Origin: Escherichia phage Bp4
DNA length: 64,000 nt
Strand: one strand, 5' to 3'
Sequence record: NC_024142.2
Below, in pieces: positions 1,396-56,099 of the stretch (the first letter of the stretch is position 1; each line of letters begins with the position of its first letter). The position numbers were made by a program, and so were the translations under genes. The notes under the pieces are model-generated. The model was not told the DNA's origin. It made no database searches and was given only the letters and a program-made list of their open reading frames with translations.

Positions 1396-1710
1396 TTACT
1401 TCCTTACATAGTAGTAACGGGATTCACCATCCTCATAGCGACAATCCCATTGGTAATCATCAGACACCATCATGTATGGGATAGGTTCCCCGGAGTTAAA
1501 GTTGGTATAGACAGATGGAGGAACAATACATACAACCTTACGGTCATTACCTGCTAAGAAGAGTTGACCCCTTACCTCATGGTAGTCCTCTAAAGTAGGA
1601 ACCAGGATTACTTGCTGGGGGTTGCTGTCCATGACTTCTTCTAAAGTGAAGTCTCCTGCATACATAGCCCCCCTTCCAGTAAAACTAGGGATGGTCATTA
1701 TGAATTTCAT
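1396..1710 (-). CDS. small protein, paralog family member B
   Basis: Core motif LEDYHEVRGQLFLAG; likely start at the internal Met (MTIPSF, about 1698). Confidence 0.45.
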   Translation of the reverse strand: MKFIMTIPSFTGRGAMYAGDFTLEEVMDSNPQQVILVPTLEDYHEVRGQLFLAGNDRKVVCIVPPSVYTNFNSGEPIPYMMVSDDYQWDCRYEDGESRYYYVRK

Positions 1711-19778: not shown

Positions 19779-19779
19779 T

Positions 19780-24895: not shown

Positions 24896-24955
24896 ACTGG
24901 CTTACTGTAGAGTAAGTTACCTATATACGATATAAGTTTGAACAGGAAACATGCT

Positions 24956-33900: not shown

Positions 33901-35668
33901 TGCAACCTTGAACCAGTACAAAGGATACATCCCAACTGAGAACAAACAGGGTGTTAACCTGATTGTTGCTGAAGATAATCAGTTTGCTGATTTGATTGAG
34001 AAATCCTATGTACGTCTTGGTACTTATCAGGGTAGCTCTGCTAACCGGGGTCCAGCACGTAGTTACTACTTTGCACCGGTACAGGCACAGGCTCCGTTCT
34101 CACAAGGTATCCTACAGAACGTTCGAAATACTGCTGGTGGTGTAGACCTTGGTACAGGCTTTACGATGGGAACCATGGTAGCTGGTCGTATTACTGACAA
34201 GCCTTCCGTAGACCGTATCACTAAAGCACTGGCTCGTGGTGAACGTGGCAATGAACCACTGCTGCCTGTATATGATGCTAATGGTAATGTAGTTGCTTAT
34301 GAGCAATCTATTGACCCTAACATGCTGAAGCACATTGAGGGTGAGAATCATCTTGCTCGTGCAATCGGTGTATGGCGTGGTCGTCAGGTGGAAGAAGCTA
34401 AGGCTCAGCGTTTCAACGATATGCTAATTGAGAACCTGCATAGCATGTATGAGAACGACATTAAGATGTCTGCTTCTAATAAGTCCCAGTACGTTAACCT
34501 TCTTGGTTCTAAACTGGACCCAGTAACTGCCGATGCCCTTAAGCTGATGAACAGTGAAACTCGTCAGAAAGCAGAAAGTCTCTTTGGTCCAGGTGAATTG
34601 TGGGTGCGTCGTGACATGCTTAATGATGCTCTGGGTTATCGTGCAGCTTCTGTAGGAGATGCCTGGTCTGGTAATTCTCGTTGGTCACCAGAAACACTGG
34701 ATACCTTCAAGAAAGCTATGTTGGGTGTATTCGGCAACCGTGCCTATAAGTATGTAATGGGTGGTGAGAACCTGGTTCAGAACTTAGTTAAAGAAGCTAA
34801 GACCCTGATTGTAGTTAAGTCAGTAGTTGTACCTGCTGTTAACTTCCTGGCTAACCTTTACCAGATGGTTGCTCGTGGTGTACCTGTTAAGAACATTGCT
34901 AAGAGCATCCCACAAAAAACTGCTGAGATTAACCAGTATCTGAAATCTCGTCTGCGTCAGGTAGATGCAGAAGCAGAATTACGTGCAGCTACTAACCCGA
35001 ACCAGATTCGTAAACTCAAGGCTGAGATTCAGTCCATCTCTGATAGCCATAAACGTTTGAGTATCTGGCCTCTGTTGGAAGCTGGTGAGTTCTCTTCAAT
35101 TGCAGATGCTGGTATTGGCCGTGATGACATCCTGATTACTGAAGGTAAACTCCACGAATACATGGAAAAGCTGGCTGATAAGCTGCCTAAGTCTGTTCGT
35201 AACGCAGGTCGCTATGCACTTATCACTAAGGATACTGCTCTCTTCCAGGGTATTCAGAAGACGGTTGAGTACTCTGACTTTATTGCTAAAGCAATCATCT
35301 ATGATGAACTGACTCAGCGTAAAGGTAAGACTCGTGAAGAAGCACTGGGGCGTGTAACGGAAGAGTTCATTAACTATGACCGTCTGCCTGGTCGATTCCG
35401 TGGGTATATGGAAAGTGTTGGTTTGATGTGGTTCTACAACTTTAAGATTCGTTCTGCAAAAGTTGCAGTGTCCATGATTCGTAATAACCCAGTACATGCT
35501 GCTATGGCTATGTTGGCTCCAACCCCTACCATGTTTGGTAACGTTGGTCTTCCTATTCAGGACAACATCTTTAGTATTGCTGCACAAGGCAATCTTGGTT
35601 ACTCCTTTGGTTTCGGTCAAGGCTTACGTGCCCACAACCTGAACCCTTGGCTCAACCTTACTAACTAA
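24956..35668 (+). CDS. giant virion-encapsidated RNA polymerase (N4 vRNAP-like)
   Basis: Single uninterrupted ~3570-aa ORF in the virion module; size and position are diagnostic of N4-like phages; ATG at 24956 with RBS AGGAAAC. Confidence 0.8.
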   Translation: MSTFDRLAGFADSITNAKQVDVSTATSQKQAAQGQSPFQLTPENAYNLQTGRVGNLGIGAFEPGSLQADFTQASPLEIINKYGNEQGLQILNSRANAADVVRQDLSKQRTNAEAFGDTLSGVGLGVANTLGGIAALGTGLVNDNAGASIASGLDWLNKGVHNLQSDALNARRNVVQNQNVISAQENEKLYKQDIAKGESELVASLSRIGRDAYDSVANTLSNDMAATDGLAEGVGSFFTGGPLIRGVSALGKVMVGGDKAVKGITLAAELGYRPARIAQTAGRVAAPAIAIGGMEAGGAYQQTANEIMEMPFSELAAKSPVYQQHIKDGLSPEEARRQTASETGITAAGLTAPVAALTAPLVSKFELNPLKVGSLAGAGSNMLRETVEEGIQSGTSQFAQNKAIQGNVDAERDLLKGVGEQTGLGALYGFGSAGVAQAPGATVKAAGAAVGPAVRTTLAGASLAGKALAKVASPITNILVQRGEEVAKRNEQASPVSDATVNAAAQEATAQAEQAQATVQEAVDAMDISPEEKAAATQYAADLTQAMKFDPVELEQTNPAIREAVSGSTNRVEAIQKMADLVNTAEDPNVQMEAAIQMYDNIMSMDSFINRDPGALANLEQGSPAAAIVDQFSGLMANVQNTPKVLRAFRAIHSMIQEQAEAGKLKATEEANQAQANNIAMAADVSPEVLDADSVNMVLKHASEGKITLGNRQRAALQSAAALLQGAREFDAKAEELGLRPQDIVSKQIKTDESRSNEGQYSALQHAKRIRSAYNSGNFDLASAYLSDFMKFAQHMQNKVGALNEHLISGNADKNKSVHYQALSPSREWVRSRTGLGVNPYDTKSVKFAQQVALEAKTVADIANALATAYPELNVSHVKVTSLDSRLNKPAAQVVKEFRQGGLDATQSQQTNEPVNQVDETPALVQEDTTTVQPKDKLVVENKTAPTKETSPKAEEVSTTESERDAYVKENTISQEILNKNGDRRESPWLFADGTVVGSNGDHISLSDVFGHDGYRDMSLDTGAIRSTFYKGSEQPFVSLQLFDNQKLTAEQFNTVQSFVEANNALIQVGVDTSGRNTNNVEKEEVSLAQLKADYTVGGKPLSEMETVFPVYNNDKTPNQFIKSFSLPEEPKSRTIGSESPLTDVKKALSSAARFEAFTQKENNALTSDVIKRYQDLFEFGETLKTTLSDRLAKFLANKNVGKRFAEGTEANRWVGGKLLNIVEKDGDTFKFNDQLLETAVLAGLQWRLTATQNAAVKDMKDVAAITGVEASLLPEGILADFENAQTLVEATNSLAQKIESYWGLNRNPNAPLGYTKGIPMAMATEILSSLIEMGEVKESMLDVSEIDPESNKTVGLYTIEKLDDNDAINKFPTAIEETVLLEPVEKLYLGDDIPSVAQTQLRNPAVKNTPEQKAALKAEQATEFRVHMPMVNFYEALGRDNILELMGAGALNPELLNVNTAKSLEGKNLSVSMAYDSLFGVINQIKEQENGLDTPIHYGYNMTRVGRMQMLGKNNPQSSKLVREAILPTFSTIDLSNENSQTFSDFQLGLAQALGIKVHKMSREVMSDELTKALEGKLKPAVDMMVEFDKSGHLPADAVDILKTSLGNDKSFVALMALMEYARYLNSDDRANFNTPLYVEADGVTNGPINAMVLMTGGKFTSDWIKNTAKGGLFFGKAGKTMNEHHSHEDSVDLYEASTNSLQQALNELRNNYRNNVPVTNQMKHLQKLMDLFIKDFNLNEDGTLDLKRGIAKNPLTITIYGSGARGIAGKMVSAITDTIYERFSDVLQARAADPSISPAMAMFGKEAASEADAQAMLDTFLTSMEALTGNVPVMRKGELSIQQVDGALTGKLDPQKFTVSGNALKNLQENMLHLFVEPMRTGIRNTVGEGLMYSTENLQKATQIQSLVLQDMFQQRVQEKLAEKEKDPTWKKGDFLTQKELNEIQASLSPLAPMIETGSQTFYIAGSENTDVANQVLATNLDDRMRVPMSIYAPSQAGVAGIPFMTIGTGDGMMMQTLSTMKGAPKNTLKIFDGMNIGINDITDASRKANEAVYTSWQGNPIKNVYDSFAKFMKNVDFSKLSDETKQAIAKSALEYDQREGATDDLLRVGAEQIERNLRNIALGVDIRHKVMDQVQVTVDQMAAVGAPYVNNGKISLEGLTVDQQVAKLNELFDAELNKRRDAVRAAKAEPVKEVPAMEQVGRVLKSGVRLLSNAAITKLAKEMSPEQQAVLKEIQKSLAAKDYKVVYGTPSQLDAYAIEKNITRPAPEDIEAAEAGNAYGWTNFEDKTIYLVTPSLETLVHELVHASTFESVLAHYEGTPNEAVQNIEDLMNQFRALDVKNESPAVREAYADALNTINGHLSNGFIEPAMAKAAALNEYMAWGLTNRELISKQKKTTALKTMVQAVYEAIKRLVFGRKKAPANADDMFSGLLFNSAVVMRGQAPTAAVAKDTTLFHNKAYGDNTRLEELGKTFDKLITNYIGSEPVQQVIRKGKFSDAVVKATKVTRDVQAHGFTMNMQEQRLFTNIVAALATEAAINPAAMARAQEYYTHVTKNLTVEAFMADPDSTNPADRYYAQQKFDTIMGANNIEFDAQGRSSLLPTFVGLVMVSEEVRKVLADISVMKADKKSGNTVDAMLTNIGTAAMASLNARVAGDTKATNVQEGMDALAQTIMQTSLNAESFYDSVATPTGNAIDRANQYLVDSIDALSTRALEGAREVAANTKNPLVKGAAHAAQLVAAIATEKNGAIVAEGVMAAMNQGKVWQPFHDLVNDIIGRTKSNASVYDLIKAVRAQVQADRQQFREHLPTTIASKFSRKLTNDEWKAMHTGMGKTDLAVLRDTMSLDEIRDLLTDQKNVDREVNKLEADLQKQAGRNWPLINRKSKQLAQYMINGTVGNNLLRNATAISRLLGERKTTRSVVDVAQLDKLITLYALEAMSKTDREVLSSLAQTEVEGMDFATSYLVGQRKDEMAKAKSDSRATLNQYKGYIPTENKQGVNLIVAEDNQFADLIEKSYVRLGTYQGSSANRGPARSYYFAPVQAQAPFSQGILQNVRNTAGGVDLGTGFTMGTMVAGRITDKPSVDRITKALARGERGNEPLLPVYDANGNVVAYEQSIDPNMLKHIEGENHLARAIGVWRGRQVEEAKAQRFNDMLIENLHSMYENDIKMSASNKSQYVNLLGSKLDPVTADALKLMNSETRQKAESLFGPGELWVRRDMLNDALGYRAASVGDAWSGNSRWSPETLDTFKKAMLGVFGNRAYKYVMGGENLVQNLVKEAKTLIVVKSVVVPAVNFLANLYQMVARGVPVKNIAKSIPQKTAEINQYLKSRLRQVDAEAELRAATNPNQIRKLKAEIQSISDSHKRLSIWPLLEAGEFSSIADAGIGRDDILITEGKLHEYMEKLADKLPKSVRNAGRYALITKDTALFQGIQKTVEYSDFIAKAIIYDELTQRKGKTREEALGRVTEEFINYDRLPGRFRGYMESVGLMWFYNFKIRSAKVAVSMIRNNPVHAAMAMLAPTPTMFGNVGLPIQDNIFSIAAQGNLGYSFGFGQGLRAHNLNPWLNLTN

Positions 35669-36240: not shown

Positions 36241-36312
36241 TTGGCTTCATGAGCTTACTACTTTGTCGGGTAGTTCAGTACCTTTCGGTAAAAACTACCA
36301 TACACCTTTGAA

Positions 36313-36693
36313 TCAAATTGTACAACCACCACCATCACAGGTATTGTTTTCTGCAAAGGAAGCCAAAGCTTTAGCAGTCTCTTCCTTCTCATGCAGTGCC
36401 TGACGTAGTAGGTAGCCCTCTAATTCCCAAATCTTATTGAATGCATTTTCATATGCATACTGGCGACCTAACTGCTCATCATAGATAGTTGGGTCTACGC
36501 AAGCAGATACACCTTCAACTTTAAAATTGTTTTCCAGAATGATAACACAATAGGTTACCAGACCCAGGTTAGCCAAATCATCTGCCGGGAGTGCAGAAGG
36601 ATCAACGAATGCAGATTTCACTGCATCAGCACCATTAAAATAGTAAACGCTCTTAATCTTAGCTTCGATTGCTTCTTTACTTACTGTTGCCAT
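36313..36693 (-). CDS. hypothetical accessory protein
   Basis: ORF with start at MATVSKEA; contains YYFNGADAV … ENAFNKIWELEGY; no confident family. Confidence 0.5.
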   Translation of the reverse strand: MATVSKEAIEAKIKSVYYFNGADAVKSAFVDPSALPADDLANLGLVTYCVIILENNFKVEGVSACVDPTIYDEQLGRQYAYENAFNKIWELEGYLLRQALHEKEETAKALASFAENNTCDGGGCTI

Positions 36694-36751
36694 TATTAGC
36701 CTCATAGAGTGGTTTGAATTTGTACTTAAGCATGATTGCGTTCATCAATAC

Positions 36752-36783
36752 TCAAATAAAAAAGTCCCTCCGAAGAGGGACTT
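36752..36783 (-). terminator. intrinsic terminator ending the tRNA-region transcript
   Basis: Minus strand stem GTCCCTC-TTCG-GAGGGAC followed by TTTTTTATTTG. Confidence 0.7.
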
Positions 36784-37009
36784 AGTAGCTTTAACGCAGC
36801 TAACGAGGCTAGGCCAGTTAACTATTACCACCGGTGCTTGTACCAGCAAACAGGATTGATAGTCCGATAATAGTTAACTGTAATTGAGCATTATAGTCTG
36901 CTCATACTCACACCGTTAGGTATGTTTTCAATAATTAGAGTGCCGGACTGTCTCACCGGCATTGTCTTTAGAGTGCAATGCAATCAGGACTATGTTCTCT
37001 ATTAATAAG

Positions 37010-37083
37010 TACCCACTACTGGATTTGAACCAGTGACCTTCCGATTATTAGTCGGTTGCTTTCCCCGTCTAAGCTAAGTGGGC
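37010..37083 (-). tRNA. tRNA, canonical cloverleaf; anticodon loop CUAAUAA, isotype uncertain
   Basis: Hand fold: acceptor GCCCACU/AGUGGGU, D-arm GCUU/AAGC, anticodon stem with one mismatch, T-arm ACUGG-UUCAAAU-CCAGU; no encoded CCA. Confidence 0.5.
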
Positions 37084-37457
37084 ATAAATGAGTGAGTCAT
37101 GCCAGACTTTAACTGGCTCCTTCTTCGCAATCCTTACATACCCCTACATAATTATTGCGTTAAGCTTATATTGTTTAAGTTTAAGTGAAGGCGTTCTTGC
37201 TGACTCATAATAGGGTGGGCGTTTGACGAATGACTAGTTCGTTACTACCCGTTTGCCATAAGTACCTGGCGACTTTGGTTTGAGGCGGGAGTCCGAGTCC
37301 TGTACAGCCTTACCGTTCACACATTGGCAGCGTATCTAGAATAGCACTTCCGGCAACTGGATTTAACTGTTACACCCCAAATCTGGTAGGGGCGTCCAGA
37401 AGTCTCATCTGGTACTTACGCCGTCGTATGGTTACGACTTACCCCCATAATCTTTCT

Positions 37458-37529
37458 AATTCAAAGTAGCACTGCTCCATGTTTGGCCTTTGAACTCCGG
37501 GATGGATTAGTGCAATGCTACTTTGAATT
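37458..37529. repeat. 14-bp perfect inverted repeat with 44-nt spacer
   Basis: AATTCAAAGTAGCA at 37458-37471 and TGCTACTTTGAATT at 37516-37529, abutting a tRNA-like 3' end. Confidence 0.6.
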
Positions 37530-37615
37530 GGTTACCAGTGAGGGATTCGAACCCCCGGTTGGAGTCTATAGCTTACCGCAGCAGCTCTCCAATCTAGCGG
37601 TGTCACACTTAGTCC
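37529..37615 (-). tRNA. tRNA-like element (T-arm, 3' acceptor strand and encoded CCA; no canonical 5' half found by eye)
   Basis: GGGGG-UUCGAAU-CCCUC then ACUGGUA-A-CCA; upstream region does not fold into D or anticodon arms. Confidence 0.3.
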
Positions 37616-37653
37616 AAACTTGAACATATCAAGCTATCTCGTGCAACTGATAA

Positions 37654-37719
37654 TTGGTTCCGGCGTCTGGACTCGAACCAGAACACTTATGCCGTGCACG
37701 ACACTAGTACCTACACCGG
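37654..37719 (-). tRNA. tRNA-like minihelix (7-bp acceptor, T-arm, CCA; about 10 nt too short for a cloverleaf)
   Basis: Acceptor UCCGGUG/CGCCGGA, T-arm UCUGG-UUCGAGU-CCAGA, A-CCA; internal 29 nt have no stems. Confidence 0.3.
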
Positions 37720-37795
37720 AATTAATTGCCAGGGATTCCACCTGGTCCATCTGTTTTTATAGTCACTCAGATATCGTCTGGACTGTAGGCATGGG

Positions 37796-37871
37796 TGGGA
37801 ATCGAACCCACAAACCATTCAGCACTGTAGCCTCACGCTCTACCTATTTGAGCTATCACACACCATTGATT
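37796..37871 (-). tRNA. tRNA-like element (canonical D-arm and T-arm; acceptor and anticodon stems not pairable)
   Basis: D-arm UAGCUCAAAUAGGUAGAGC and T-arm GUGGG-UUCGAUU-CCCAC present. Confidence 0.3.
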
Positions 37872-38156
37872 AACTCCCCGTTTCTAATACACGGACGAGG
37901 ACACTCCATGGTCGTTTGATAATCAGGACGACTCACTCCCGACTGACGCTTGGCTTATTAGGCTGCCATCAGAACAACATCATCGTTTGCATTTATGTTA
38001 TTGGTTCGTTTCTAAAAAACCGCATAATCGCTTACGAAAACTATCAAAGAGTACACTAAGCACAGGTAGCTACCCTGCCGTCTTCTCCACCTACACCGGC
38101 TACAGTGTAAACCTCCGCACGTTAGCTTAATGTACTCATTGATAGGATGTCAGTAG

Positions 38157-38226
38157 GTCGGGGGCTGGATTCGAACCAGCGAGAGAAGTAGCGACCATCT
38201 GCACATGCCTACGTGCTACCTCGACC
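38157..38226 (-). tRNA. tRNA-like element (acceptor with one mismatch, D-arm, T-arm; anticodon region 2-3 nt short)
   Basis: GUCGAGG/CCCCGAC, D-arm GCAC-GUAGGCAU-GUGC, T-arm GCUGG-UUCGAAU-CCAGC. Confidence 0.3.
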
Positions 38227-38401
38227 ATTATAATAGGAGGGAGGGGACGAGTCCTCCCTTTATACCCTATATTGCATGTAAGACCTAACAATTCGATGCT
38301 GTAGGTAGCTATGCTATCCGACATTTAACCCAGCCATATAGGGCTTATGTGATTAAAATGCTCAACATTGAGCGGTTAGTTTGATAAGGGATCTGAAGCC
38401 T

Positions 38402-38429
38402 TATCCCAAAGATACTAACCTTTGGGATA
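38402..38429. other. 10-bp stem hairpin in non-coding region
   Basis: TATCCCAAAG-ATACTAAC-CTTTGGGATA. Confidence 0.5.
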
Positions 38430-38610
38430 TAGCCTATCATTCAGAAATGGCCCCTATAGGGAGAGGCCATTGATTAACCCGAATGTTGCTTTACATTTTC
38501 TGTGATAACCCATTCTTAAAATAGTTTACCTGACGGATGGGGGCCACCCCTAGCGTCAGTGCCATACGGCAAAGATTAAGTTAAGAAAGGTTATGATAGG
38601 AGTTCCTATC

Positions 38611-38811
38611 TCAAAGGATTCTAACAGAACCCTTCACGATATTAACTACTCTTTTTAATGCTTCTACTTCACCCTCTCTATACCAAGCATATGGTACTAA
38701 GATTTTGCAGCCTTCTGATTCAATGTGAAATGCTTTCTTTCCTTCAACGGGTTCTCCACCCATGAAAGAACTAACCTTTCCATTGAGCCAGTGAATAGTA
38801 AATTTGTTCAT
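38611..38811 (-). CDS. hypothetical small protein
   Basis: 66-aa ORF (MNKFTIHWLNGK…) with upstream GAGA RBS-like element. Confidence 0.45.
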   Translation of the reverse strand: MNKFTIHWLNGKVSSFMGGEPVEGKKAFHIESEGCKILVPYAWYREGEVEALKRVVNIVKGSVRIL

Positions 38812-41693: not shown

Positions 41694-43586
41694 TTATTTG
41701 CCAGCGAAGCGTTTAGCCACGGTGACCATTACGGTTGCATTCAATTCATCATCTGGTAATGGATTAGCCAGTTTCTTATTGAATGAGTGGACGGCTTGCT
41801 GTACTTGGGCAAAATCCCAACCACTGTCAACCAATGCCAGTGCGTACTTAATCATTTGATTATTACGATTACCGGTAGCAATACGACTAGCGAACCAACG
41901 CTCCAGATTATCCAACGACTGTACTTCCTTCATCTGGTTCTGGAACTGCTCGTTCTTACTAGTACGAGGAATAAAGTCACGCACGTCCAACAGATTTGCT
42001 TCAAGATTGTAATGATAGGAACCAGTCTCACAGGACATCCATTTCTTGGCTCGCTGGTTAGCAGATTCATCCGTTTCGAACGGTAGCCAAGACATAACGT
42101 TATTCATAAACTCTTTGTATTCCTCAGTGTCGAGGTGTAACTCATAGTTCATTGGAATAATCAGTCGGAAGCGGTTCTCTTCATCAGAATGACGTTTAGT
42201 GGTATAGGTCATGAACTTATATTCCTTCATCAGTTCATGGCACGTATGCAGTGGTACTCCACCATCACAGTCAATAACAATCATGTTAAATCCTGGAATA
42301 ACGTTCTCTTCAGAACGATGTCCATTCTTCATGTGATGGTTTACCCAGTGCATACCGGGAGCTTGGGTTAATACATGCAACTGGTCGAACGGTACACGTT
42401 CACCAATGTAGTCATAAGCAAAGCTATCACTATATGCCACTATCATCTCATTGATGTCAGTTTCTTTCAGAGTCTCACCACGGAAGAACTCAATACCTTC
42501 ATTAAAAGTCTTCTTAATGATGATGTGCTGTTTGTAGCCCCATGCTGTAGCAAGAGTCATCATCTCATTACGAGCTGCATTGCCACTCTTATAGAATGGC
42601 AATGACTCCACCAAGTCAGCATGAGTTACTTCTTTACCTACAGAAGCAATGTATTTAGCCAGCTTCACATAAGCCTTCTCACGATTGAGGATTGTCTGGA
42701 ATGCTGCTCCAGATTCTTCTACAAGCAGAATTGCTTGTTTAAGGTGAGTCATCTCAATGAATGAACTCTGGTCAACAAACGCCAGTGCTCCTGCCAGTTT
42801 AAGTGCTTTGAAATAACGGTGGGAAATTTCAGCTTTACGAATTTCTTCGTGGTCAGCCATAGCTTCTGCTTGTTTCTCACAATCAATTTTGTAAGCAATC
42901 AGAGCAATACCCACTGCATCTTCCACAACCATCTTAAAACCAAACAGGTTTGGATCAGCCAGACTATGGAAATGGTTAGCCCACTTACCAAGAGTCTGTA
43001 CGTTATCTTGTTTAATCAAGTTACGGTAGATTTCTTCCGGGGTTAGTGTTGCATGTGCTCTTTTGTCTAAGTGACCAGTGGCAAACAGACAGCGACGTGC
43101 ATACCCTATATCAAGAAAGCCATAGAACTGGTCTTCAGTCTGACCACCATCCAGTAGCTTACTTGGTGTACCAAACAGCAGCAGGTTAGTTGGAGTTTTG
43201 CCATCCAATTCTTCACCACGAACGCTTTCAGCAGTATTCTTGGTTAGCTTCTGTTTTACTTTTCCCTGGTCATATAACTCCAGGAACAGGGTTAGTACAT
43301 CCATGTTAGCCAACAGGTTCGAACCAATTTCATCAATCTGAAGATTGATTGAACCACATCCAGCCATTAATAGTTTATGGCGTAGTTGTTTAACTGCTGG
43401 TGGAGTACCTGAGTCAAACGTAAACGGATATGCCCCTGCACGTTTATACTCTGCCTCAACTTTATCAAACTCTTCCTGCTGGTCAGTACCCTGCCGTGCA
43501 GAGCGTTCGTTAGCAATCTTCCATAGACGATCATTTGCAATGACGGGCATGGTGTCTTCCATAAAGCGTTTACGGAAGCCAGTCAT
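41694..43586 (-). CDS. primase-like replication protein (DxD motif)
   Basis: 630 aa, MIVIDCDGG resembles the hhhDhD primase motif; position in the replication module. Confidence 0.4.
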   Translation of the reverse strand: MTGFRKRFMEDTMPVIANDRLWKIANERSARQGTDQQEEFDKVEAEYKRAGAYPFTFDSGTPPAVKQLRHKLLMAGCGSINLQIDEIGSNLLANMDVLTLFLELYDQGKVKQKLTKNTAESVRGEELDGKTPTNLLLFGTPSKLLDGGQTEDQFYGFLDIGYARRCLFATGHLDKRAHATLTPEEIYRNLIKQDNVQTLGKWANHFHSLADPNLFGFKMVVEDAVGIALIAYKIDCEKQAEAMADHEEIRKAEISHRYFKALKLAGALAFVDQSSFIEMTHLKQAILLVEESGAAFQTILNREKAYVKLAKYIASVGKEVTHADLVESLPFYKSGNAARNEMMTLATAWGYKQHIIIKKTFNEGIEFFRGETLKETDINEMIVAYSDSFAYDYIGERVPFDQLHVLTQAPGMHWVNHHMKNGHRSEENVIPGFNMIVIDCDGGVPLHTCHELMKEYKFMTYTTKRHSDEENRFRLIIPMNYELHLDTEEYKEFMNNVMSWLPFETDESANQRAKKWMSCETGSYHYNLEANLLDVRDFIPRTSKNEQFQNQMKEVQSLDNLERWFASRIATGNRNNQMIKYALALVDSGWDFAQVQQAVHSFNKKLANPLPDDELNATVMVTVAKRFAGK

Positions 43587-43846
43587 GAACCCGTCTTCAA
43601 TGATATTACTGAGTGACCTTTACCGAAACCAGATGTAGCCAACGCTATAGCGTAGATGTTTACCGGCAGGTCACCACGATCTTTAGTTACGATGGTTGCA
43701 CCCATGCAGGATGCCATTTTAGCCAAGAAGTAGGCTACTTCGACACGGAAAAATCCCCGGTCATTATTCTGGGTTTTATTGCAGAGCACATCTACGATTT
43801 CTTCAATCGCCGGATGATGCACTACTCCGGTAAGGTCAATACTCAT
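43583..43846 (-). CDS. hypothetical small protein
   Basis: Start at MSIDLTG overlaps the upstream stop; end overlaps the next start. Confidence 0.3.
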   Translation of the reverse strand: MSIDLTGVVHHPAIEEIVDVLCNKTQNNDRGFFRVEVAYFLAKMASCMGATIVTKDRGDLPVNIYAIALATSGFGKGHSVISLKTGS

Positions 43847-44823
43847 GATGGAAAATATCTCTCTCTTTGTTTGCAAATGGACGCGACAGGGCAGTATAGA
43901 CAACGCTTAACCTGCCCCTCCACGACCTTGATAGCACCCTTGCCACCTTTTTCAGCCATGAAGATACGAGCAGATGCCATATCGTCAAATTTTTTGGTAC
44001 TTCTGGCTCCAGGTACATCTACCTTAGAAGCATCAGAGAAGTATTTGAACTGTGGCTCTGTTCGCCACAACTCCTCATCAGTACATTCAGGAATTTCCTC
44101 TTCTGGTGCATTCCAGTACTTCTCAATGAGGTGAATCTTCTCTTCTACCCAACGTTCAGTCTTCTCAACAGATAGCAACGGAATATCCTTATGCATAATA
44201 CGATTAGCAGGATAGTTTGGATTGCTATTAGCCATATGCTTCATGAAGTCAGTGAAGATGTAGTTAATACGGATTACATCCTCGGTAATGATGTCGTTGT
44301 GAATCCAACGGTACAAGCTGCCTTGCATCTTGTGTTCATCATCACGGGAACCAGCAACCCAGGAATAGGTTGAGGTAGACTTAAAGTCCTGCAACAGACC
44401 TTCTGTTACGATGTCGAACTTACCACCGATAGTCCAACCCTTAACTACCCTGGTTCCACGCTGTTCAATGTAGATTGGGATAAGGTCAGGGTTAGCATCA
44501 AAGTCTGCTTTGGTTGGGTTAATAACTACTGCATCAATTACTCGTTGAGGATAACCCAACTTCTTCAATGCAGTCTTATGACCCAGCTTCCAGGCTTTCT
44601 CGATAGAATCATGTAAACCAGTACCCATTGATGTGGAGACGAAATCCATAACATCAATTGACTGATCACTTAAATCTACACGATGCTTCATGACGATTTG
44701 CTTAATGGGCTTAAGCAATGTGGTAACAGACAGATACTTAGGGTTATCTACATAGTCATAATCATCCGTTACAAGCCATACAGCTAGTGCAAGACTAACG
44801 TCGTGTTTGTTGGTAAGTTTCAT
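43843..44823 (-). CDS. PD-(D/E)xK family nuclease with C-terminal Cys cluster
   Basis: GKFDIVTEGLLQDFK (D…E…K arrangement) and C-terminal CLYCPVASIC. Confidence 0.45.
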   Translation of the reverse strand: MKLTNKHDVSLALAVWLVTDDYDYVDNPKYLSVTTLLKPIKQIVMKHRVDLSDQSIDVMDFVSTSMGTGLHDSIEKAWKLGHKTALKKLGYPQRVIDAVVINPTKADFDANPDLIPIYIEQRGTRVVKGWTIGGKFDIVTEGLLQDFKSTSTYSWVAGSRDDEHKMQGSLYRWIHNDIITEDVIRINYIFTDFMKHMANSNPNYPANRIMHKDIPLLSVEKTERWVEEKIHLIEKYWNAPEEEIPECTDEELWRTEPQFKYFSDASKVDVPGARSTKKFDDMASARIFMAEKGGKGAIKVVEGQVKRCLYCPVASICKQRERYFPS

Positions 44824-45317
44824 AACAGTCCCAATTGCTTATTAGTTTTAGCAAACTCACCATAATGAGTTATAGCAGCTTCATCATAGAGAACAGCAGC
44901 TTCTCTTGGGTCATCTGTAAAACCTAATGTAATTGGTTTACTGTTAACCCAAATAGTTGCTCTGTATTTACCTAAATTCTTTGAAAAGGATACCCCCTTA
45001 AATCCAGATGTGTTTGTTTTAGATAAAACAGCACTCTGGTTATTCTGCTTGTGGGTCGCTTCTCTGAGGTTATCTATCCAGTTGTGATGGCGAATATTGT
45101 CCTTATGGTCAATCCTATCCGTAGGCCATACACCGTGCACATAGAACCATGCAAGGATATGCCCATAGTACAACACACTATCTACACGGAGTTGAACGTA
45201 ACCACTCTTCATTAGGTAACCAGATACCTTTCCGGTATTCCTACGAGTAAAAATCCCGGAAATAGGGTCATAACTAACAAGCTGTAAAAGCCTGTCATGG
45301 GCAATCCTCTGTTTCAT
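44820..45317 (-). CDS. HNH homing endonuclease with AP2 DNA-binding domain
   Basis: HNH core RIDHKDNIRHHNWIDNLREATHKQNN, then AP2-like SGFKGVSFSKNLGKYRATIWVNSKPITLGFTDD. Confidence 0.8.
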   Translation of the reverse strand: MKQRIAHDRLLQLVSYDPISGIFTRRNTGKVSGYLMKSGYVQLRVDSVLYYGHILAWFYVHGVWPTDRIDHKDNIRHHNWIDNLREATHKQNNQSAVLSKTNTSGFKGVSFSKNLGKYRATIWVNSKPITLGFTDDPREAAVLYDEAAITHYGEFAKTNKQLGLL

Positions 45318-45865: not shown

Positions 45866-46170
45866 TATTTCTCCTTGGGAATCATGTTTGCCTGGAACTC
45901 TGGTTCAGACATCAGACCCAGGTTGCTAAGAGACAGATAAACGATGTCTTTCAAGTCAACTGAAGTGTCGAAACGCTGGTCCAGACTGATTTTCAGAGAG
46001 TGATTGGCACGAGCCAAATCTTTATAGGTCACGTAAGGTTCATCTGTGAGCAACATTGTGTTCATGGTAAGCAGGGAACCATCATCCACTTTAGGGAGTT
46101 GGAAGACTACCTGTGCTGCTACCATCCAATGATATTTTCTGACTACAGTTTCTTTAGTACTTTTGGTCAT
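45865..46170 (-). CDS. hypothetical protein
   Basis: 101-aa ORF, start overlaps upstream stop. Confidence 0.4.
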   Translation of the reverse strand: MTKSTKETVVRKYHWMVAAQVVFQLPKVDDGSLLTMNTMLLTDEPYVTYKDLARANHSLKISLDQRFDTSVDLKDIVYLSLSNLGLMSEPEFQANMIPKEK

Positions 46171-46661
46171 GCGAATGCCTTTTGAATTATTTGATGAACT
46201 TCTTCTGGGGTAGCGTGATTTGGAATTTCAATCTCGTTAGCCCACGTTGGGTAAAACAAGGATAGTTCCCCACCCAAACCAACTTCTGGGTGAGCAATAT
46301 CAGGATGGTCTTGCCAGTTAACGGCTTCAACCAAGTGCTTGTTCGTGAATTGCAAAGTATCCATGTTGTCACGAATCATGAAGTACTGAGCATCATGAAT
46401 ATGAATACTAGGACGAATATCTAACCTGAACTCACTGGCTCTGACTTTACGCATAAACTCTGAACCAGCACGGTTATTTAGTAGACACCAGCTTTGCCCT
46501 AAAGCATTACCAGCAGTTCTGCCTTCTGCTTCTGCTTCATACGGAGTCTTACATGTCCCACGTAATACTTGAGCCAGTAAAGGAGTACGCACTCTCAAAC
46601 CGAATGCGGCAGTAACATAACCAGTTTTGGCAGCTTCGTCTAGCTTAGCCTGAACCCACAT
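46167..46661 (-). CDS. DNA polymerase, family A, C-terminal segment (motif C)
   Basis: Frame continues upstream as …YGLMENCGFSEEKAKTTEKRYHDLYVVSDMWVQ…; contains HIHDAQYF; separated from the middle segment by a T4/A4 indel at 46732-46735. Confidence 0.75.
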   Translation of the reverse strand: MWVQAKLDEAAKTGYVTAAFGLRVRTPLLAQVLRGTCKTPYEAEAEGRTAGNALGQSWCLLNNRAGSEFMRKVRASEFRLDIRPSIHIHDAQYFMIRDNMDTLQFTNKHLVEAVNWQDHPDIAHPEVGLGGELSLFYPTWANEIEIPNHATPEEVHQIIQKAFA

Positions 46662-46669
46662 GTCGCTAA

Positions 46670-47143
46670 CTACATAGAGGTCGTGATAACGTTTCTCTGT
46701 AGTCTTAGCCTTCTCTTCTGAGAAGCCACAGTTTTCATTAAGCCCATATATGTACCACCATAGGTAAGCAGGAAGGTTGGAGCCTTCGAGTCACTACGCA
46801 ATGATTTGTACTTATGCTGAATGGAGTTAATGGATTCTACCGTGTCTTCTATGTCCGGCATCTGCTCACCAAAGTAAGCATATGCACGAAGACTGTGACC
46901 ATCATAACCATCGGTATATACCTTGAGCTTCTGCGGATCTTTAGTAGTTAAAGCTGAGATACGGTCTTCAAGGCTTGCAAAGTCCAGTCCACAAAAGATC
47001 CAACCCGGTGGTGCTTCGAAGCATTTCTTAATCTTCTTGGCGTATTTGGAACCAGATGGAATGGTTTGCAGGTTTGGCTCAGAGGCAGATAATCTACCAG
47101 AAACCGTTCCCCCAAATTGAGGTTGCCGAATAGGTAGTGCCAT
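46670..47143 (-). CDS. DNA polymerase, family A, middle segment (motifs A and B)
   Basis: GRLSASEPNLQTIP and GLDFASLEDRI correspond to Pol A motifs. Confidence 0.75.
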   Translation of the reverse strand: MALPIRQPQFGGTVSGRLSASEPNLQTIPSGSKYAKKIKKCFEAPPGWIFCGLDFASLEDRISALTTKDPQKLKVYTDGYDGHSLRAYAYFGEQMPDIEDTVESINSIQHKYKSLRSDSKAPTFLLTYGGTYMGLMKTVASQKRRLRLQRNVITTSM

Positions 47144-48633
47144 CCATCCGGACCAGGTTGGGCATTTCTAAAGGCCGGGATGAAGCTAGTGATAATCTTA
47201 TCCACAAGCTTATAGTCGATAAGCGCATTGAGCAGTTCCTTAACATCTTCGCTCTGCGTATGTGTACGCAGTGCTTTAATGGTGTCACCATCAGTAGCAG
47301 GTTGCTTACTCTTAGTAAGACCAAGAACCGGTAAGCCAATATAGTCAAATAACAGCTTCTGTAATTGTGGACCGGAGTTAGGATTAAACTCGATGTCACA
47401 ATCAGCAAGCGTTACCTGTTTCTTCTTGAGCTTAGCATTCTTATCATCTACCCATTCCTGACGAAGCATCAGGGTGAAGTTCTTCATGAGCTTAGACTCA
47501 CGAATAGTTTTCAGAGCCTGGTTCCTGTCAGTTTCCATCTCCTTAGCTACTTGGTTAACGGTATCCATATTCATGGGCATACCGGTTAACTGCATCTGGA
47601 TTATGTCTTCACATGCTGGTTTAAAGATGTTGTTGTAAACATCTAATTGGTCATCAGCAATGAGAGTATCCCAGTGCTTCTCATAGGTGTACCAGGTACA
47701 CAAACCGTCAATGAGGTTGTAGCGTAACAGTTGCTCATTAGGAATAAGACGAATGTCTTTAATGTCATCCTGAGCATAGTTACCAGCATACTCCTGAGCC
47801 TGGTCTTTTAGACTAAGGTGATTACCAGCACAACTGTTAGTAGCCAGGTAGGTGATTAACTTAGTACAGTCCCAGTTGCGTAGCATGATTTCCATACCAT
47901 GCAGTAAGCCTTCTGTATCAATCAGGTTATCCATGAATAACTGATAGATAAGCACATACACGTCGTAGCTAATGTTGTGATACATCTGCCGTTGAGTGTA
48001 CTTAATGAAGAACTCACGAAGAAGATTTCGAACAACATCATTTCTGTTGATACGCCCGTATGGTGCTTCAGTAGCTCCAGGAATCGGCTCGTAGTCCACA
48101 TTAAAGGCTATGCCTTGTGTCTTACTCCAACAGAACGTAATTGTTCCTATACCTGCGTTATAGTGCTTTAAACCGAATGCCTCGATGTCTATAGCCAGTG
48201 GCTTATTCATCTCAAGCAGTTGGTCTAGCCAGGCTTTAATCTTCTCTGGGGTATCTGGATAAGCCTCAAACTCAATGATTCCCTGACCTGGTTCTGCATA
48301 CTGCCCACGTATGTGGTTAAGTAATGCATCCATACCCTGAGCAATCTTAGATTTCACTACAGGAGGGTCATAAAAGACCTGTCTGTAGCTAGGTGCATAG
48401 ATAACCTTCTGCTTACCCCATACTGAATCACAAACGTAGCCGAGGTTAGCCTCTGCTTTTGCTTCTTTAGTCAGTATTTTGAAGTAGTCAGAATCGGTAC
48501 AGATAATGTATTGAGTCTCTGCATCGTCCAGTACTTGTTGCAACTCCTGCTGTATGAACTCCTTAATCTCCCTTGCAGGAGTCTTCTTCTTGCCGGGGGC
48601 AGAATGAAGTTCGATGAAGATGAAATCTTCCAT
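46948..48633 (-). CDS. DNA polymerase, family A, N-terminal segment with 3'-5' exonuclease domain
   Basis: Exo I-like LAIDIEAFGL; true frame ends near 47110, where a C5/G5 run shifts into the middle segment. Confidence 0.8.
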   Translation of the reverse strand: MEDFIFIELHSAPGKKKTPAREIKEFIQQELQQVLDDAETQYIICTDSDYFKILTKEAKAEANLGYVCDSVWGKQKVIYAPSYRQVFYDPPVVKSKIAQGMDALLNHIRGQYAEPGQGIIEFEAYPDTPEKIKAWLDQLLEMNKPLAIDIEAFGLKHYNAGIGTITFCWSKTQGIAFNVDYEPIPGATEAPYGRINRNDVVRNLLREFFIKYTQRQMYHNISYDVYVLIYQLFMDNLIDTEGLLHGMEIMLRNWDCTKLITYLATNSCAGNHLSLKDQAQEYAGNYAQDDIKDIRLIPNEQLLRYNLIDGLCTWYTYEKHWDTLIADDQLDVYNNIFKPACEDIIQMQLTGMPMNMDTVNQVAKEMETDRNQALKTIRESKLMKNFTLMLRQEWVDDKNAKLKKKQVTLADCDIEFNPNSGPQLQKLLFDYIGLPVLGLTKSKQPATDGDTIKALRTHTQSEDVKELLNALIDYKLVDKIITSFIPAFRNAQPGPDGWHYLFGNLNLGERFLVDYLPLSQTCKPFHLVPNTPRRLRNASKHHRVGSFVDWTLQALKTVSQL

Positions 48634-48705
48634 GCTTAGGTCATTAGGCAGCAGGTAGGTTTAATCATCTCCTCCCTTCGGATTTGATGACCGAGGATAG
48701 CAATA

Positions 48706-48723
48706 GGATACTTACCCGTATCC
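48706..48723. promoter_or_regulatory. hairpin in the DNA polymerase upstream region
   Basis: GGATAC-TTACCC-GTATCC in the 120-nt gap upstream of the pol start. Confidence 0.3.
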
Positions 48724-48752
48724 TGAGAGGTGATGTAACGCATAGCCTTACC

Positions 48753-53533: not shown

Positions 53534-53779
53534 TTAGTTACCTTTCAGTTTATTTAGACGATTACGGTAGAGGGACTTAAACCCAGGAATATCCTCTGGA
53601 TTCTTCTTAAGGTGTTTGACCAAACTACCTAAGTCCAGCGTCTGTAGGATGTCATTTTTATTCCAGCTATAACTGAATAATTCTTTGTAATCATTAAGTA
53701 TTTTAAAGTACTTATGATTACGCGGATTAGTCATTATTGCATATGGCTCTAAGTCATCCACTGACTTAATACAACCCAT
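53534..53779 (-). CDS. hypothetical small protein
   Basis: 81-aa ORF. Confidence 0.4.
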   Translation of the reverse strand: MGCIKSVDDLEPYAIMTNPRNHKYFKILNDYKELFSYSWNKNDILQTLDLGSLVKHLKKNPEDIPGFKSLYRNRLNKLKGN

Positions 53780-53880
53780 TTCAACAAGTTTTTCTTTGTT
53801 GTCGTGTGGTCGATTCCGTAGAAAGTCATATGCCCATTCATATTCTGGTTTAAAAATCAGATTCTGTAATGGTTTGAAGG

Positions 53881-55263
53881 TTAGACCAGTATGTCTAGGA
53901 TTTCCCAGTATTCCCTGTCATCCAGTCCTACGTATTCCAGAATACCAATACGGTGTTCAGTAACATATTTCTTGAAGCCTTTACTGGTAATAACTGGCAT
54001 CAGCTCCATAAAGCGAACATCATCAATGTGGATAGCACCTCTCCGTTTGGCCTTGTTAGCTTCGATTTGATTACGGCAGACAACAGTCTCTGCTCTCATC
54101 TCATCAGATAACTCATACCATTTCCACATGGTTCCAATTCGAGCAGTTACTGGGCTACCTGAACCAACCTGATTGGCTAGTACGTAGTACTTAGGTTGCT
54201 CTACTTCAACGAAACCAGACTTATCATGGCGACTTGGGTCTGCAAATTCCTTCTGAATATAAGGCTTTGGTTCCCAATCCCCATTTTTATTCCGTATTTG
54301 GGTAGCACCAAGAACTGCATTCAATGAAATCAGAGAATTAGTTTTACCTCCTGCCTTGGTTTTATTGGCAGCGATTGTCTTAGACCGTTTCTCAGCAGCT
54401 ATCTTAGCTTTCTCTCTACGGAAGTTAGTTGGTTTGTCCCACTCATTATATTGAGTAAGGTCGATTACCCGATAACCCATAGCAGTGAACTTAGCCACAG
54501 CTTCTTCTGCTGCACCCTTCTTAGGTCCAACGACGTGAACAAAAGCTGTACGCTCCAGGTCACCTCGATCGTACTCAGGGAAGTACGAGAAAGAGTCTGC
54601 ACAGTCAGACAAACGTCGGGTAACTACAACGTTTTTGGTAGTGAATATGCCAATACTTTGGTGGGAGTTATTGTATATCCTAAAGTAGTCAGTAAGTTTA
54701 CCTTTTACCAAGTCAACACGGTTACCTTGATTCATTATGTAACCAGACCACTTAATACCAGAGGTTTTCAAAGCAGCCAGCTGAGGTAAGTGCAGATGGC
54801 GATATACTAATTCCGAGAATGGGGAGTATGTACTTTCTTCACGAGTATCCTTAAGAGCACGCATAGCCTTACCATACAGTTTCTTAAGACCTGCGTATTC
54901 AGGACGAGCTAATAATGCCTTATTGGATAAATTACGCCAGTGCTTGATGTAATGCTTACGTTGCTTAGCCCACAAACTAGAGGACATATAGCGTTGAACA
55001 GTTCTGTCTGTAACAGCACCCAGGAATGATGGATACTCCCAGAAGCGAGTAGAGGATTTAGAAGCATATTCTTCAACCTGCTTAATGGCTTCAGGAATCT
55101 TAGCCTTAATCTCTTTCTCCATACGGTCTACTAAATCTACACATAGAGTAGTAATACCATCGTCGGTTAACTTCTGGTTAGACAGCGTTTCTCGACTAGG
55201 AGCAATAGCTAAAGTGTCTGGTGCAGCCTGAACTACTAGATTAGAAGCACCAATAATATTCAT
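53881..55263 (-). CDS. rIIA-like protein, C-terminal segment
   Basis: Frame is open upstream of the ATG and joins the N-terminal segment once one TACAT unit is removed. Confidence 0.5.
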   Translation of the reverse strand: MNIIGASNLVVQAAPDTLAIAPSRETLSNQKLTDDGITTLCVDLVDRMEKEIKAKIPEAIKQVEEYASKSSTRFWEYPSFLGAVTDRTVQRYMSSSLWAKQRKHYIKHWRNLSNKALLARPEYAGLKKLYGKAMRALKDTREESTYSPFSELVYRHLHLPQLAALKTSGIKWSGYIMNQGNRVDLVKGKLTDYFRIYNNSHQSIGIFTTKNVVVTRRLSDCADSFSYFPEYDRGDLERTAFVHVVGPKKGAAEEAVAKFTAMGYRVIDLTQYNEWDKPTNFRREKAKIAAEKRSKTIAANKTKAGGKTNSLISLNAVLGATQIRNKNGDWEPKPYIQKEFADPSRHDKSGFVEVEQPKYYVLANQVGSGSPVTARIGTMWKWYELSDEMRAETVVCRNQIEANKAKRRGAIHIDDVRFMELMPVITSKGFKKYVTEHRIGILEYVGLDDREYWEILDILV

Positions 55264-55280
55264 GAAGTTGAGGATAAGGC

Positions 55281-56099
55281 CTACAGCTTCTTCACTAGCT
55301 GGGCTGGATACAATTGGTACATTACATTACCGTAGCGAACGTATATGTTACTGCTACCCATATAGCCTTGATACCATCTATCAGACATATCATATGAACC
55401 AGGTTCAAATGGCATGCCTAGTGTATCCAGTAGAGTGTAGTCGCCTTGTTGAATACTATTACTCTCGTCTGTTCTAATGAGTTTGGGAGTACTTAGCTCA
55501 GCTTTAATTTCACCGTTAAACACAATTGATTTGATGTAATGAATAAAGGTATTTAAATCATGTTTGCCTAACTGGAATTTAACTTCCAGACCAGATTCCT
55601 CAGTAGGAATACCAGTAATAATAGGAACAATACCAGGCTTACCATCATTCTCAATTGCAGCCTTAGCTACGTTATATACCGACATCTTCCCCTGGTTCCA
55701 TGAAGTAACCTGGAAGCTATCTGTATAAGCGAATGGAGATTTACATCCCAGACCAAAGCCACCAGTAGCACTACTGTTGGCTTTCTTAGTAGATGCACCA
55801 TAGACACCATAAATGGAACCAATGAGTTCATCTGGAATACCACTACCGTAATCACGGAAGGTAATAAAGTTGTCTGTATCAATGGTGATACGAATAGGGG
55901 TATCAGTTTTACCTGCCTCAATATGAGCATCCCAGCTGTTACATATAGTCTCACGAACTACTGCCAGAGTAGGATTGTTATACAGGGAAGTACTTAATAC
56001 ATGGAAGAATGCCGGGTCATCAGAGATGCCAAAGGCAATTGTTTCTTTGCCACCCAGTGTCGCTGAGGTAGCTATTTCGTTGGTATCTGCAACTAACAT
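55281..56099 (-). CDS. rIIA-like protein, N-terminal GHKL-type ATPase segment
   Basis: ICNSWDAH, FRDYGSGIPDE and GGFGLGCKS match the histidine-kinase-like ATPase fold found in rIIA. Confidence 0.55.
   Translation of the reverse strand: MLVADTNEIATSATLGGKETIAFGISDDPAFFHVLSTSLYNNPTLAVVRETICNSWDAHIEAGKTDTPIRITIDTDNFITFRDYGSGIPDELIGSIYGVYGASTKKANSSATGGFGLGCKSPFAYTDSFQVTSWNQGKMSVYNVAKAAIENDGKPGIVPIITGIPTEESGLEVKFQLGKHDLNTFIHYIKSIVFNGEIKAELSTPKLIRTDESNSIQQGDYTLLDTLGMPFEPGSYDMSDRWYQGYMGSSNIYVRYGNVMYQLYPAQLVKKL
55318..55327. repeat. 5-bp tandem duplication (TACAT x2) that frameshifts the rIIA-like gene
   Basis: Plus strand TACATTACAT; removing one unit gives a continuous …RYGNVPIVSSPASEEAVGLILNFMNIIGAS… frame. 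Confidence 0.6.

What the first reader, a model, noticed from the sequence alone, without database searches (positions are those of the whole stretch)
46167..48633. Family-A DNA polymerase split into three ORFs by two homopolymer frameshifts
Exonuclease domain (LAIDIEAFGL), motif A (GRLSASEPNLQTIP…GLDFASLEDRI) and motif C (HIHDAQYF) are in three frames. Junction 1 is at a C5 run (plus 47109-47113; one extra base restores …FGNLNLGGTVSGRLS…). Junction 2 is at a T4 run (plus 46732-46735; one extra base restores …YMGLMKNCGFSEEKAK…). An essential gene broken twice at homopolymers points to sequencing/assembly indels.
Basis: seen in the sequence. Interest (0 to 1): 0.5.

Follow-up and report, generated by a model that had tools for sequence, protein, structure and literature searches.

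The report
Sequencing-error frameshifts in phage DNA polymerase
The "broken" DNA polymerase gene is an ordinary, intact N4-like phage polymerase whose deposited sequence (phage Bp4) is missing one base in each of three short single-letter runs, part of a genome-wide pattern of 34 such sequencing errors, so it is a data-quality artefact and not biology.

Summary
On the minus strand, a family-A DNA polymerase is cut into pieces at the C5 run 47109-47113 and the T4 run 46732-46735. The gene really starts at 48743, not 48633.

The window is Escherichia phage Bp4: its two larger polymerase ORFs are exactly AJB43748.1 and AJB43747.1. Over 64 kb it differs from phage PD38 by 3 substitutions and 34 indels. 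Every indel is a deletion in the window, and the deletion rate climbs with run length, from 0.003% of 1-mers to 8% of 5-mers. These deletions also break the tail fibre, primase, rIIA and several virion genes. Adding one base at each of the three polymerase sites gives PD38's 859-aa polymerase exactly.

In 50 of the 60 best phage records the stretch across junctions 2 and 3 is unbroken. Nine are split by an HNH endonuclease insertion. Only Uz-1 shares the frameshifts, and it has Bp4's exact length and coordinates, with no indels despite 6% substitutions. Its announcement cites a tool from the Genome Detective pipeline, so I infer a reference-projected consensus rather than independent confirmation.

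Nothing supports recoding. Verdict: sequencing or assembly artefact, low interest.

The parts
46167..48743 (-). Whole family-A DNA polymerase gene (N4 gp39 homologue). It is 2577 nt here and 2580 nt (859 aa) in intact relatives.
   Evidence: identical to the PD38 CDS AXY81328.1 except for three 1-nt deletions. Pfam DNA_pol_A, PHROG 17 and PDB family-A polymerases such as 7r0k, Taq and Klenow all match.
48660..48662 (-). T3 on the plus strand (A3 on the gene strand) where relatives have A4. It cuts off the first 28 codons (MRYITSQDTGKYPIAILGHQIRREEMIK).
   Evidence: All seven independently assembled relatives examined have AAAA and an open frame. Substitutions in the first 111 nt fall on codon positions 1/2/3 as 2/0/11.
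47109..47113 (-). C5 on the plus strand (G5 on the gene strand) where relatives have G6. It lies just upstream of the GRLSASEPNLQTIP motif.
   Evidence: The alignment to PDB 7r0k runs straight across this point.
46732..46735 (-). T4 on the plus strand (A4 on the gene strand) where relatives have A5. It lies 8 codons after motif B (SKAPTFLLTYGG).
   Evidence: The alignment to PDB 7r0k runs straight across this point.
46948..48633 (-). Artefactual ORF 1 (561 aa), deposited as 'DNA polymerase' AJB43748.1/YP_009113225.1. It holds the exonuclease motifs and the N-terminal part of the polymerase domain. Its last 55 residues are out-of-frame read-through.
46670..47143 (-). Artefactual ORF 2 (157 aa) with the GRLSxxxPNLQ motif, motif A (DFASLED) and motif B. 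It is not annotated in either deposited record.
   Evidence: (this exact sequence is not in the protein collection).
46167..46661 (-). Artefactual ORF 3 (164 aa) with motif C (HIHDAQYF), deposited as 'DNA polymerase' AJB43747.1.

Best explanation
The window is the deposited genome of Escherichia phage Bp4 (Gamaleyavirus, Schitoviridae). Its DNA polymerase gene is a normal single 859-codon family-A polymerase gene. The deposited sequence under-calls the length of three short homopolymers inside it (A4 to A3, G6 to G5 and A5 to A4 on the gene strand), which produces three apparent -1-nt frameshifts. These are 3 of at least 34 identical-type errors spread over the 64-kb window. The phage itself almost certainly makes an intact polymerase. 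The shared frameshifts in phage Uz-1 are most likely inherited from Bp4 through a reference-projected consensus. Shown here: the indel pattern, its dependence on run length, the exact repair to a known protein, and the continuity of the frame in relatives. Inferred: that the cause is base-calling or assembly rather than real mutation, because no reads could be examined.
For: (1) Identity of the window: ORF 46948..48633 is exactly AJB43748.1/YP_009113225.1 of phage Bp4, on a 72,583-bp contig, and ORF 46167..46661 is exactly AJB43747.1. (2) Window versus PD38 over 64,036 aligned columns: 3 mismatches and 34 gap openings (36 nt), all deletions in the window and none insertions. (3) The fraction of runs that are shortened rises with run length: 1-mers 0.003%, 2-mers 0.11%, 3-mers 0.43%, 4-mers 1.1%, 5-mers 8.2%, 6-mers 6.3%. 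(4) 23 of the 36 missing bases lie in PD38 coding sequences. They break the tail fibre, primase, rIIA (twice), a 1965-nt and a 2655-nt virion gene, and others. DNA polymerase and primase are core genes of the family (PMC7650795). (5) The polymerase has 3 hits against 1.1 expected from the genome-wide run-length rates, so it is not specially targeted. (6) Adding one base at each of the three sites gives a protein identical to PD38 AXY81328.1. (7) A 201-aa peptide spanning junctions 2 and 3 is encoded in one uninterrupted piece in 50 of the 60 best phage records. Match counts were 902 records at 80% coverage or more (E<=1e-10) and 447 (E<=1e-30); piece counts were checked only for the listed rows. 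(8) The PDB alignment to 7r0k is continuous across both of those junctions. (9) Uz-1 has the same length (72,583) and the same coordinates, with 3,822 substitutions and zero indels against the window. Its announcement took Trimmomatic from the Genome Detective tool.
Against: No raw reads for Bp4 were available, so the true homopolymer lengths in the phage DNA were not observed directly. The sequencing platform for Bp4 could not be established, because the Bp4 paper is not held. A second deposited genome (Uz-1, Illumina) carries the same frameshifts. The Uz-1 announcement describes SPAdes and de novo reassembly, so a reference-projected consensus is my inference from its identical length and coordinates. 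Junction 2 (47109-47113) happens to form a formal X_XXY_YYZ slippery heptamer (U_UUG_GGG), and a -1 slip there would give exactly the intact peptide. The errors are not evenly spread: none fall in the vRNAP gene or in 8446-20880 (P about 0.01 and 0.0006). This fits uneven coverage or partial curation but is unexplained.
Confidence: 0.95

Rival explanations
1. The frameshifts are real mutations in the sequenced Bp4 stock, so the polymerase is a pseudogene or belongs to a defective sub-population.
For: The sequence as deposited shows them. Slippage at homopolymers is also the commonest natural route to frameshifts.
Against: The same genome would then also carry broken primase, tail fibre, rIIA and several virion genes, while differing from PD38 by only 3 substitutions. 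That gives an indel-to-substitution ratio of about 11:1, with every indel in the same direction. This is not how viable phage genomes diverge. DNA polymerase and primase are core genes of the family, and the phage was propagated as a lytic isolate.
Confidence: 0.03
2. Programmed recoding: three -1 ribosomal frameshifts, or transcriptional slippage, restore a full-length polymerase from the sequence as written.
For: All three sites need the same correction (+1 nt, equivalent to a -1 shift). Junction 2 forms U_UUG_GGG, a formal X_XXY_YYZ heptamer whose -1 slip would yield the wild-type peptide (read from the sequence).
Against: Sites 1 and 3 (AUU AAA CCU and AUG AAA ACU) do not allow tRNA re-pairing in the -1 frame. 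The runs of 3 to 5 nt are far shorter than those known to support transcriptional slippage (general knowledge). The 90 nt downstream of each site fold no better than shuffles (z = -0.7, -0.3 and -0.5). No independently assembled relative has the shift: all carry the longer run and an open frame. The heptamer is not conserved, being CTGGGGGG in PE007 and EC1-UPM. Three serial inefficient events would leave almost no product of an essential enzyme.
Confidence: 0.01
3. A functional trans-split polymerase assembled from separately translated fragments, as in relatives where a homing endonuclease splits the gene.
For: Split polymerase genes do exist in this genus. PhAPEC5/7, Moonfish, PD205, SP5M, phi G17 and ST4 have an N part of 605 or 654 aa and a C part of 276 to 323 aa.
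Against: Those natural splits carry a 0.7-0.85 kb insert, encoding an HNH endonuclease in PD205 (annotated as HNH in several other records), at two other positions flanking motif A. Each half has its own start codon and short terminal extension. In the window there is no inserted DNA. The pieces overlap or abut in different frames. ORF3's first ATG lies 25 conserved codons past the junction, so NCGFSEEKAKTTEKRYHDLYVVSD would be lost. The breaks fall inside the fingers and palm, next to motifs 2 and B. Promoter-like and terminator-like sites inside the gene are no more frequent than in shuffles.
Confidence: 0.01

Closest known systems
Escherichia phage PD38 DNA polymerase I (AXY81328.1; species Gamaleyavirus Bp4), a homologue of N4 gp39
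   Same: The nucleotide sequence is identical over 5.6 kb around the gene (0 mismatches). The repaired translation is identical over all 859 aa.
   Different: The window lacks one base in each of three homopolymers, at 48660-48662, 47109-47113 and 46732-46735.
Homopolymer-length miscalls in deposited genomes (a sequencing or assembly artefact)
   Same: All indels go one way, they are confined almost entirely to single-base runs, and their rate rises with run length. Many unrelated genes are broken with almost no substitutions.
   Different: The platform and reads for Bp4 were not available, so the cause is inferred from the pattern. The errors are clustered rather than uniform.
Homing-endonuclease-split DNA polymerase genes in Gamaleyavirus (PhAPEC5, PhAPEC7, SP5M, PD205 and others)
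   Same: It is the same gene, and it is annotated as two 'DNA polymerase' CDSs in the records.
   Different: Those are split by an inserted HNH endonuclease gene at sites flanking motif A, and they recur in many independent assemblies. The window has no insert and is split by 1-nt deletions at other positions.
Escherichia phage vB_EcoS_Uz-1 (OP312987.1)
   Same: It has the same length (72,583 bp), the same CDS coordinates and the same three polymerase frameshifts.
   Different: It has 3,822 substitutions over 64 kb. I infer that its indel state was copied from Bp4 by a reference-projected consensus. The announcement names a tool from the Genome Detective pipeline but describes de novo assembly.

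Membership tests
Family A DNA polymerase (Pfam PF00476 DNA_pol_A; Pol I / T7 gp5 / N4 gp39 type) | Significant match to the family profile above the curated threshold | tested here: met
   The repaired protein scores E=2.3e-38 and 132.6 bits against a cutoff of 34.3, over residues 432-751. PDB hits include Pol I 7r0k, Taq and Klenow at E from 1e-29 to 1e-18.
Family A DNA polymerase (Pfam PF00476 DNA_pol_A; Pol I / T7 gp5 / N4 gp39 type) | Catalytic motifs A (D..SxxE), B (K...[FY]G..YG) and C (HD) in order on one chain | tested here: met
   GLDFASLED, RSDSKAPTFLLTYGG and HIHDAQYF occur in that order in the repaired 859-aa sequence. In the window as written, A and B sit in one frame and C in another.
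Family A DNA polymerase (Pfam PF00476 DNA_pol_A; Pol I / T7 gp5 / N4 gp39 type) | N-terminal 3'-5' exonuclease domain (Exo I, II and III motifs) | tested here: inconclusive
   The motifs DIE, NISYD and YNLID are visible in the sequence, and PHROG 17 covers the region. No Pfam exonuclease family matches even at E<=10.
Programmed -1 ribosomal frameshift site | X_XXY_YYZ slippery heptamer in the zero frame at each shift | tested here: not met
   Only the 47109-47113 site fits (U_UUG_GGG). The other two sites do not (sequence).
Programmed -1 ribosomal frameshift site | Downstream stimulatory RNA structure | tested here: not met
   The z-scores are -0.69, -0.29 and -0.46 against shuffles.
Programmed -1 ribosomal frameshift site | Conservation of the shift in relatives | tested here: not met
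   All independently assembled relatives have an open frame with the longer run.
Homing-endonuclease-split (trans-split) polymerase gene | Inserted mobile-element DNA between the two halves, each half with its own start | tested here: not met
   The window gene is 2577 nt against 2580 nt in intact relatives, so it has no insert. Relatives with real splits carry 695-843 extra nt, encoding an HNH endonuclease in PD205.

The most novel reading that the evidence does not exclude
Bp4 virion DNA really carries the three shortened runs, and the phage still makes a working polymerase by triple -1 recoding or by assembling fragments. That would be an unprecedented way to express an essential replicase.
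Probability: 0.01. Interest if true: 0.8.

Novelty: not a real feature. Interest (0 to 1): 0.08.

Why it matters
Biologically it does not matter: the polymerase is an ordinary N4-like family-A enzyme. It does matter for curation. The Bp4 record is the RefSeq exemplar of the species Gamaleyavirus Bp4. It carries at least 34 homopolymer deletions in 64 kb, which fragment at least 13 genes and have put truncated 'DNA polymerase' proteins into NCBI and UniRef. The same errors appear to have passed into a second deposited genome (Uz-1) through use of Bp4 as a reference. Pan-genome, core-gene and protein-clustering work on Schitoviridae should use PD38 or a corrected Bp4 instead.

Tried and rejected
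(1) I first suspected that the window was Uz-1, because the CDS coordinates are identical. This was rejected: there are 3,822 substitutions, and exact protein look-up assigns the window ORFs to Bp4.

(2) I considered treating Uz-1 as independent confirmation of the frameshifts. This was rejected because a genome 6% divergent cannot naturally share all 34 one-base deletions with Bp4 while PD38, which is 3 substitutions from Bp4, has none. Uz-1's identical length also points to reference projection.

(3) Programmed frameshifting was rejected on the heptamer, structure and conservation tests.

(4) A trans-split polymerase was compared with the real HNH-split genes of relatives and rejected.

(5) Promoter and terminator scans inside the gene found nothing above the shuffled expectation.

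(6) A Pfam search for the exonuclease domain gave no hit.

(7) The Bp4 genome paper (PMC8193434) could not be read, so the sequencing platform is unknown.

(8) The ST4 insert ORF has no Pfam match.

Full report
**What is in the sequence.** On the minus strand of 46167-48743 there are three sizeable ORFs: 48633..46948 (561 aa), 47143..46670 (157 aa) and 46661..46167 (164 aa). They match consecutive, non-overlapping parts of a single DNA-polymerase profile, PHROG 17 positions 536-966, 967-1086 and 1118-1253. Pfam DNA_pol_A hits ORF1 and ORF2. After repair, it hits the whole protein at E=2.3e-38.

They are the plus-strand C5 run at 47109-47113 and the T4 run at 46732-46735, and one extra base at each restores the quoted peptides.

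**A third break and the true start.** Alignment with relatives shows a third one-base deletion at plus-strand T3 48660-48662, which is A3 on the gene strand against A4 in relatives. It also shows that the gene starts at the ATG at 48743, ten bases after the upstream gene, and not at 48633. The 37 codons upstream of 48633 are conserved as protein in all seven independently assembled relatives I fetched. Their nucleotide differences fall on codon positions 1/2/3 as 2/0/11. The gene is therefore in four frame segments, not three.

**Where the window comes from.** Exact-sequence look-up shows that the 561-aa ORF is AJB43748.1/YP_009113225.1 and the 164-aa ORF is AJB43747.1. Both are 'DNA polymerase' of Escherichia phage Bp4, on a 72,583-bp contig. 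Bp4 itself is absent from the phage collection I could search. The nearest record there is PD38 (MH669274.1, species Gamaleyavirus Bp4) at 99.9%.

**The decisive comparison.**
- Over 64,036 aligned columns the window differs from PD38 by 3 substitutions and 34 indel events totalling 36 nt.
- Every one of the 34 is a deletion in the window, and almost all shorten a single-base run.
- The fraction of runs affected rises from 0.003% for single bases through 0.11%, 0.43% and 1.1% for runs of 2, 3 and 4, to 8.2% and 6.3% for runs of 5 and 6.
- 23 of the 36 missing bases fall in PD38 coding sequences. They fragment the tail fibre, primase, rIIA (twice), a 1965-nt virion gene (five bases), a 2655-nt gene and several small genes.
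- The polymerase's three hits compare with 1.1 expected from the genome-wide run-length rates, so it is not singled out.
- In the 5.6 kb around the polymerase there is no substitution at all.
- Inserting one base at each of the three sites yields a protein identical to PD38's 859-aa DNA polymerase I.

**Is the unbroken frame the norm?** A 201-aa peptide spanning the second and third junctions is encoded as one uninterrupted 603-nt stretch in 50 of the 60 best phage records. It matches 902 records at 80% coverage or more at E<=1e-10 and 447 at E<=1e-30, from 100% down to about 30% identity. I checked piece counts only for the listed rows. The alignment to a solved Pol I structure (7r0k) runs straight across both junctions. 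The breaks lie just before the GRLSxxxPNLQ motif and 8 residues after motif B. That places them inside the catalytic core rather than at domain boundaries.

**The Uz-1 puzzle.** One other record, vB_EcoS_Uz-1 (OP312987.1), shares the frameshifts and has CDS coordinates identical to the window's ORFs. Yet it differs from the window by 3,822 substitutions, with no indel, over 64 kb. Those substitutions are mostly synonymous: 759 amino-acid changes for 3,577 nucleotide changes in CDSs.

A genome 6% diverged cannot naturally share all 34 one-base deletions with Bp4 while PD38, three substitutions away from Bp4, has none. The Uz-1 announcement reports a 72,583-bp genome, exactly Bp4's length, and took Trimmomatic from the Genome Detective tool. 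It otherwise describes SPAdes assembly and de novo reassembly. I infer that Uz-1 is a consensus projected onto Bp4 coordinates, with insertions relative to the reference dropped. On that reading it is error propagation, not confirmation.

**Alternatives.**
- *Programmed -1 frameshifting.* Only the 47109-47113 site forms a formal slippery heptamer (U_UUG_GGG). The other two sites cannot re-pair in the -1 frame. Downstream RNA folds no better than shuffles (z = -0.7, -0.3 and -0.5). The shift is absent from every independent relative, and the heptamer itself is not conserved, being CTGGGGGG in PE007 and EC1-UPM.
- *Transcriptional slippage.* This needs much longer runs than 3 to 5 nt (general knowledge).
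- *A functional trans-split enzyme.* Genuinely split polymerase genes do exist in this genus, in PhAPEC5/7, Moonfish, PD205, SP5M, phi G17 and ST4. They are split by a 0.7-0.85 kb insert at two other sites flanking motif A. The PD205 insert encodes an HNH endonuclease, and several other records annotate one. Each half has its own start. The window has no insert, and ORF3's first ATG would drop 25 conserved codons.
- *Real mutations.* This would require a viable lytic phage with more than a dozen broken genes, including family core genes, and an 11:1 ratio of indels to substitutions.

**Limits.** I saw no reads and could not read the Bp4 paper, so the platform is unknown and the cause is inferred from the pattern. 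The errors are clustered. None occur in the 10.7-kb vRNAP gene or in 8446-20880 (P about 0.01 and 0.0006). That would fit uneven coverage or partial manual correction, but it remains unexplained.

**Verdict.** The feature is a sequencing or assembly artefact in a reference phage genome, and its only real interest is for database curation.

Noticed in passing
window 1022, 1345, 2125, 2676, 2693, 7419, 8445, 20881, 23557, 23649-50, 23755, 24009, 24890, 36254, 37745, 38335, 38340, 38543, 38656, 43607, 53887, 55317, 56877, 57137, 59083, 60558, 60717, 60722, 61632, 62218, 63995: There are 31 further one-base (twice two-base) deletions relative to PD38, nearly all in homopolymers. They split the tail fibre (5713-7515 + 7521-8435), primase (41694-43586 + 43583-43726), rIIA (three pieces, 53534-56099), a 1965-nt virion gene (22903-24862, three pieces), a 2655-nt gene (19780-22433, two pieces) and several small ORFs.
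   Followed up: yes
window 8446-20880 and 24938-35668: These two blocks (tail spike to coat genes, and the 10.7-kb virion RNA polymerase) contain no homopolymer deletions, although 7.5 and 4.6 are expected from the genome-wide rates. The errors are clustered, perhaps through uneven coverage or partial manual correction of the record.
   Followed up: partly
L005/L006 (OP312987.1, phage vB_EcoS_Uz-1), whole record: Uz-1 has exactly Bp4's length (72,583 bp) and CDS coordinates. It shows 3,822 substitutions and no indel against the window, and it inherits all of Bp4's frameshifts. It looks like a consensus projected onto the Bp4 reference, though its announcement describes de novo assembly. One annotated CDS (1396..1698) is not an intact ORF in the stored Uz-1 sequence.
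   Followed up: partly
L009:2098-2739 (phage PD205, ON922919.1); L010:2072-2728 (phage ST4); also PhAPEC5/7, Moonfish, SP5M, phi G17: The polymerase gene is naturally split in several Gamaleyaviruses by a 0.7-0.85 kb insert at two sites flanking motif A (…EAPP|GWIFCGLDFASLE… and …KLKVY|TDGYDGH…). The PD205 insert encodes an HNH_3 + NUMOD4 endonuclease that its record does not annotate. The ST4 insert ORF (218 aa) has no Pfam match. The split C-terminal halves form their own PHROG (2573).
   Followed up: partly
window 37009-37083, 37785-37863, 38155-38226 (minus strand): ARAGORN predicts three tRNA genes: Ile-AAT, Cys-ACA and Ala-CGC. The Uz-1 annotation lists only two. Six of the homopolymer deletions fall in the surrounding non-coding region (36254-38656), but none inside a predicted tRNA.
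   Followed up: no
window 44820-45317 (minus strand): This is a free-standing HNH homing-endonuclease ORF (165 aa) downstream of the polymerase. PD38 annotates a shorter version (393 nt) at the same place.
   Followed up: no
L010 (OM982646.1, phage ST4): The ST4 record is labelled 'partial genome' and has exactly PD38's length (72,213 bp), although it is about 8% divergent and carries an extra insert in the polymerase gene. This may be another reference-shaped assembly.
   Followed up: no
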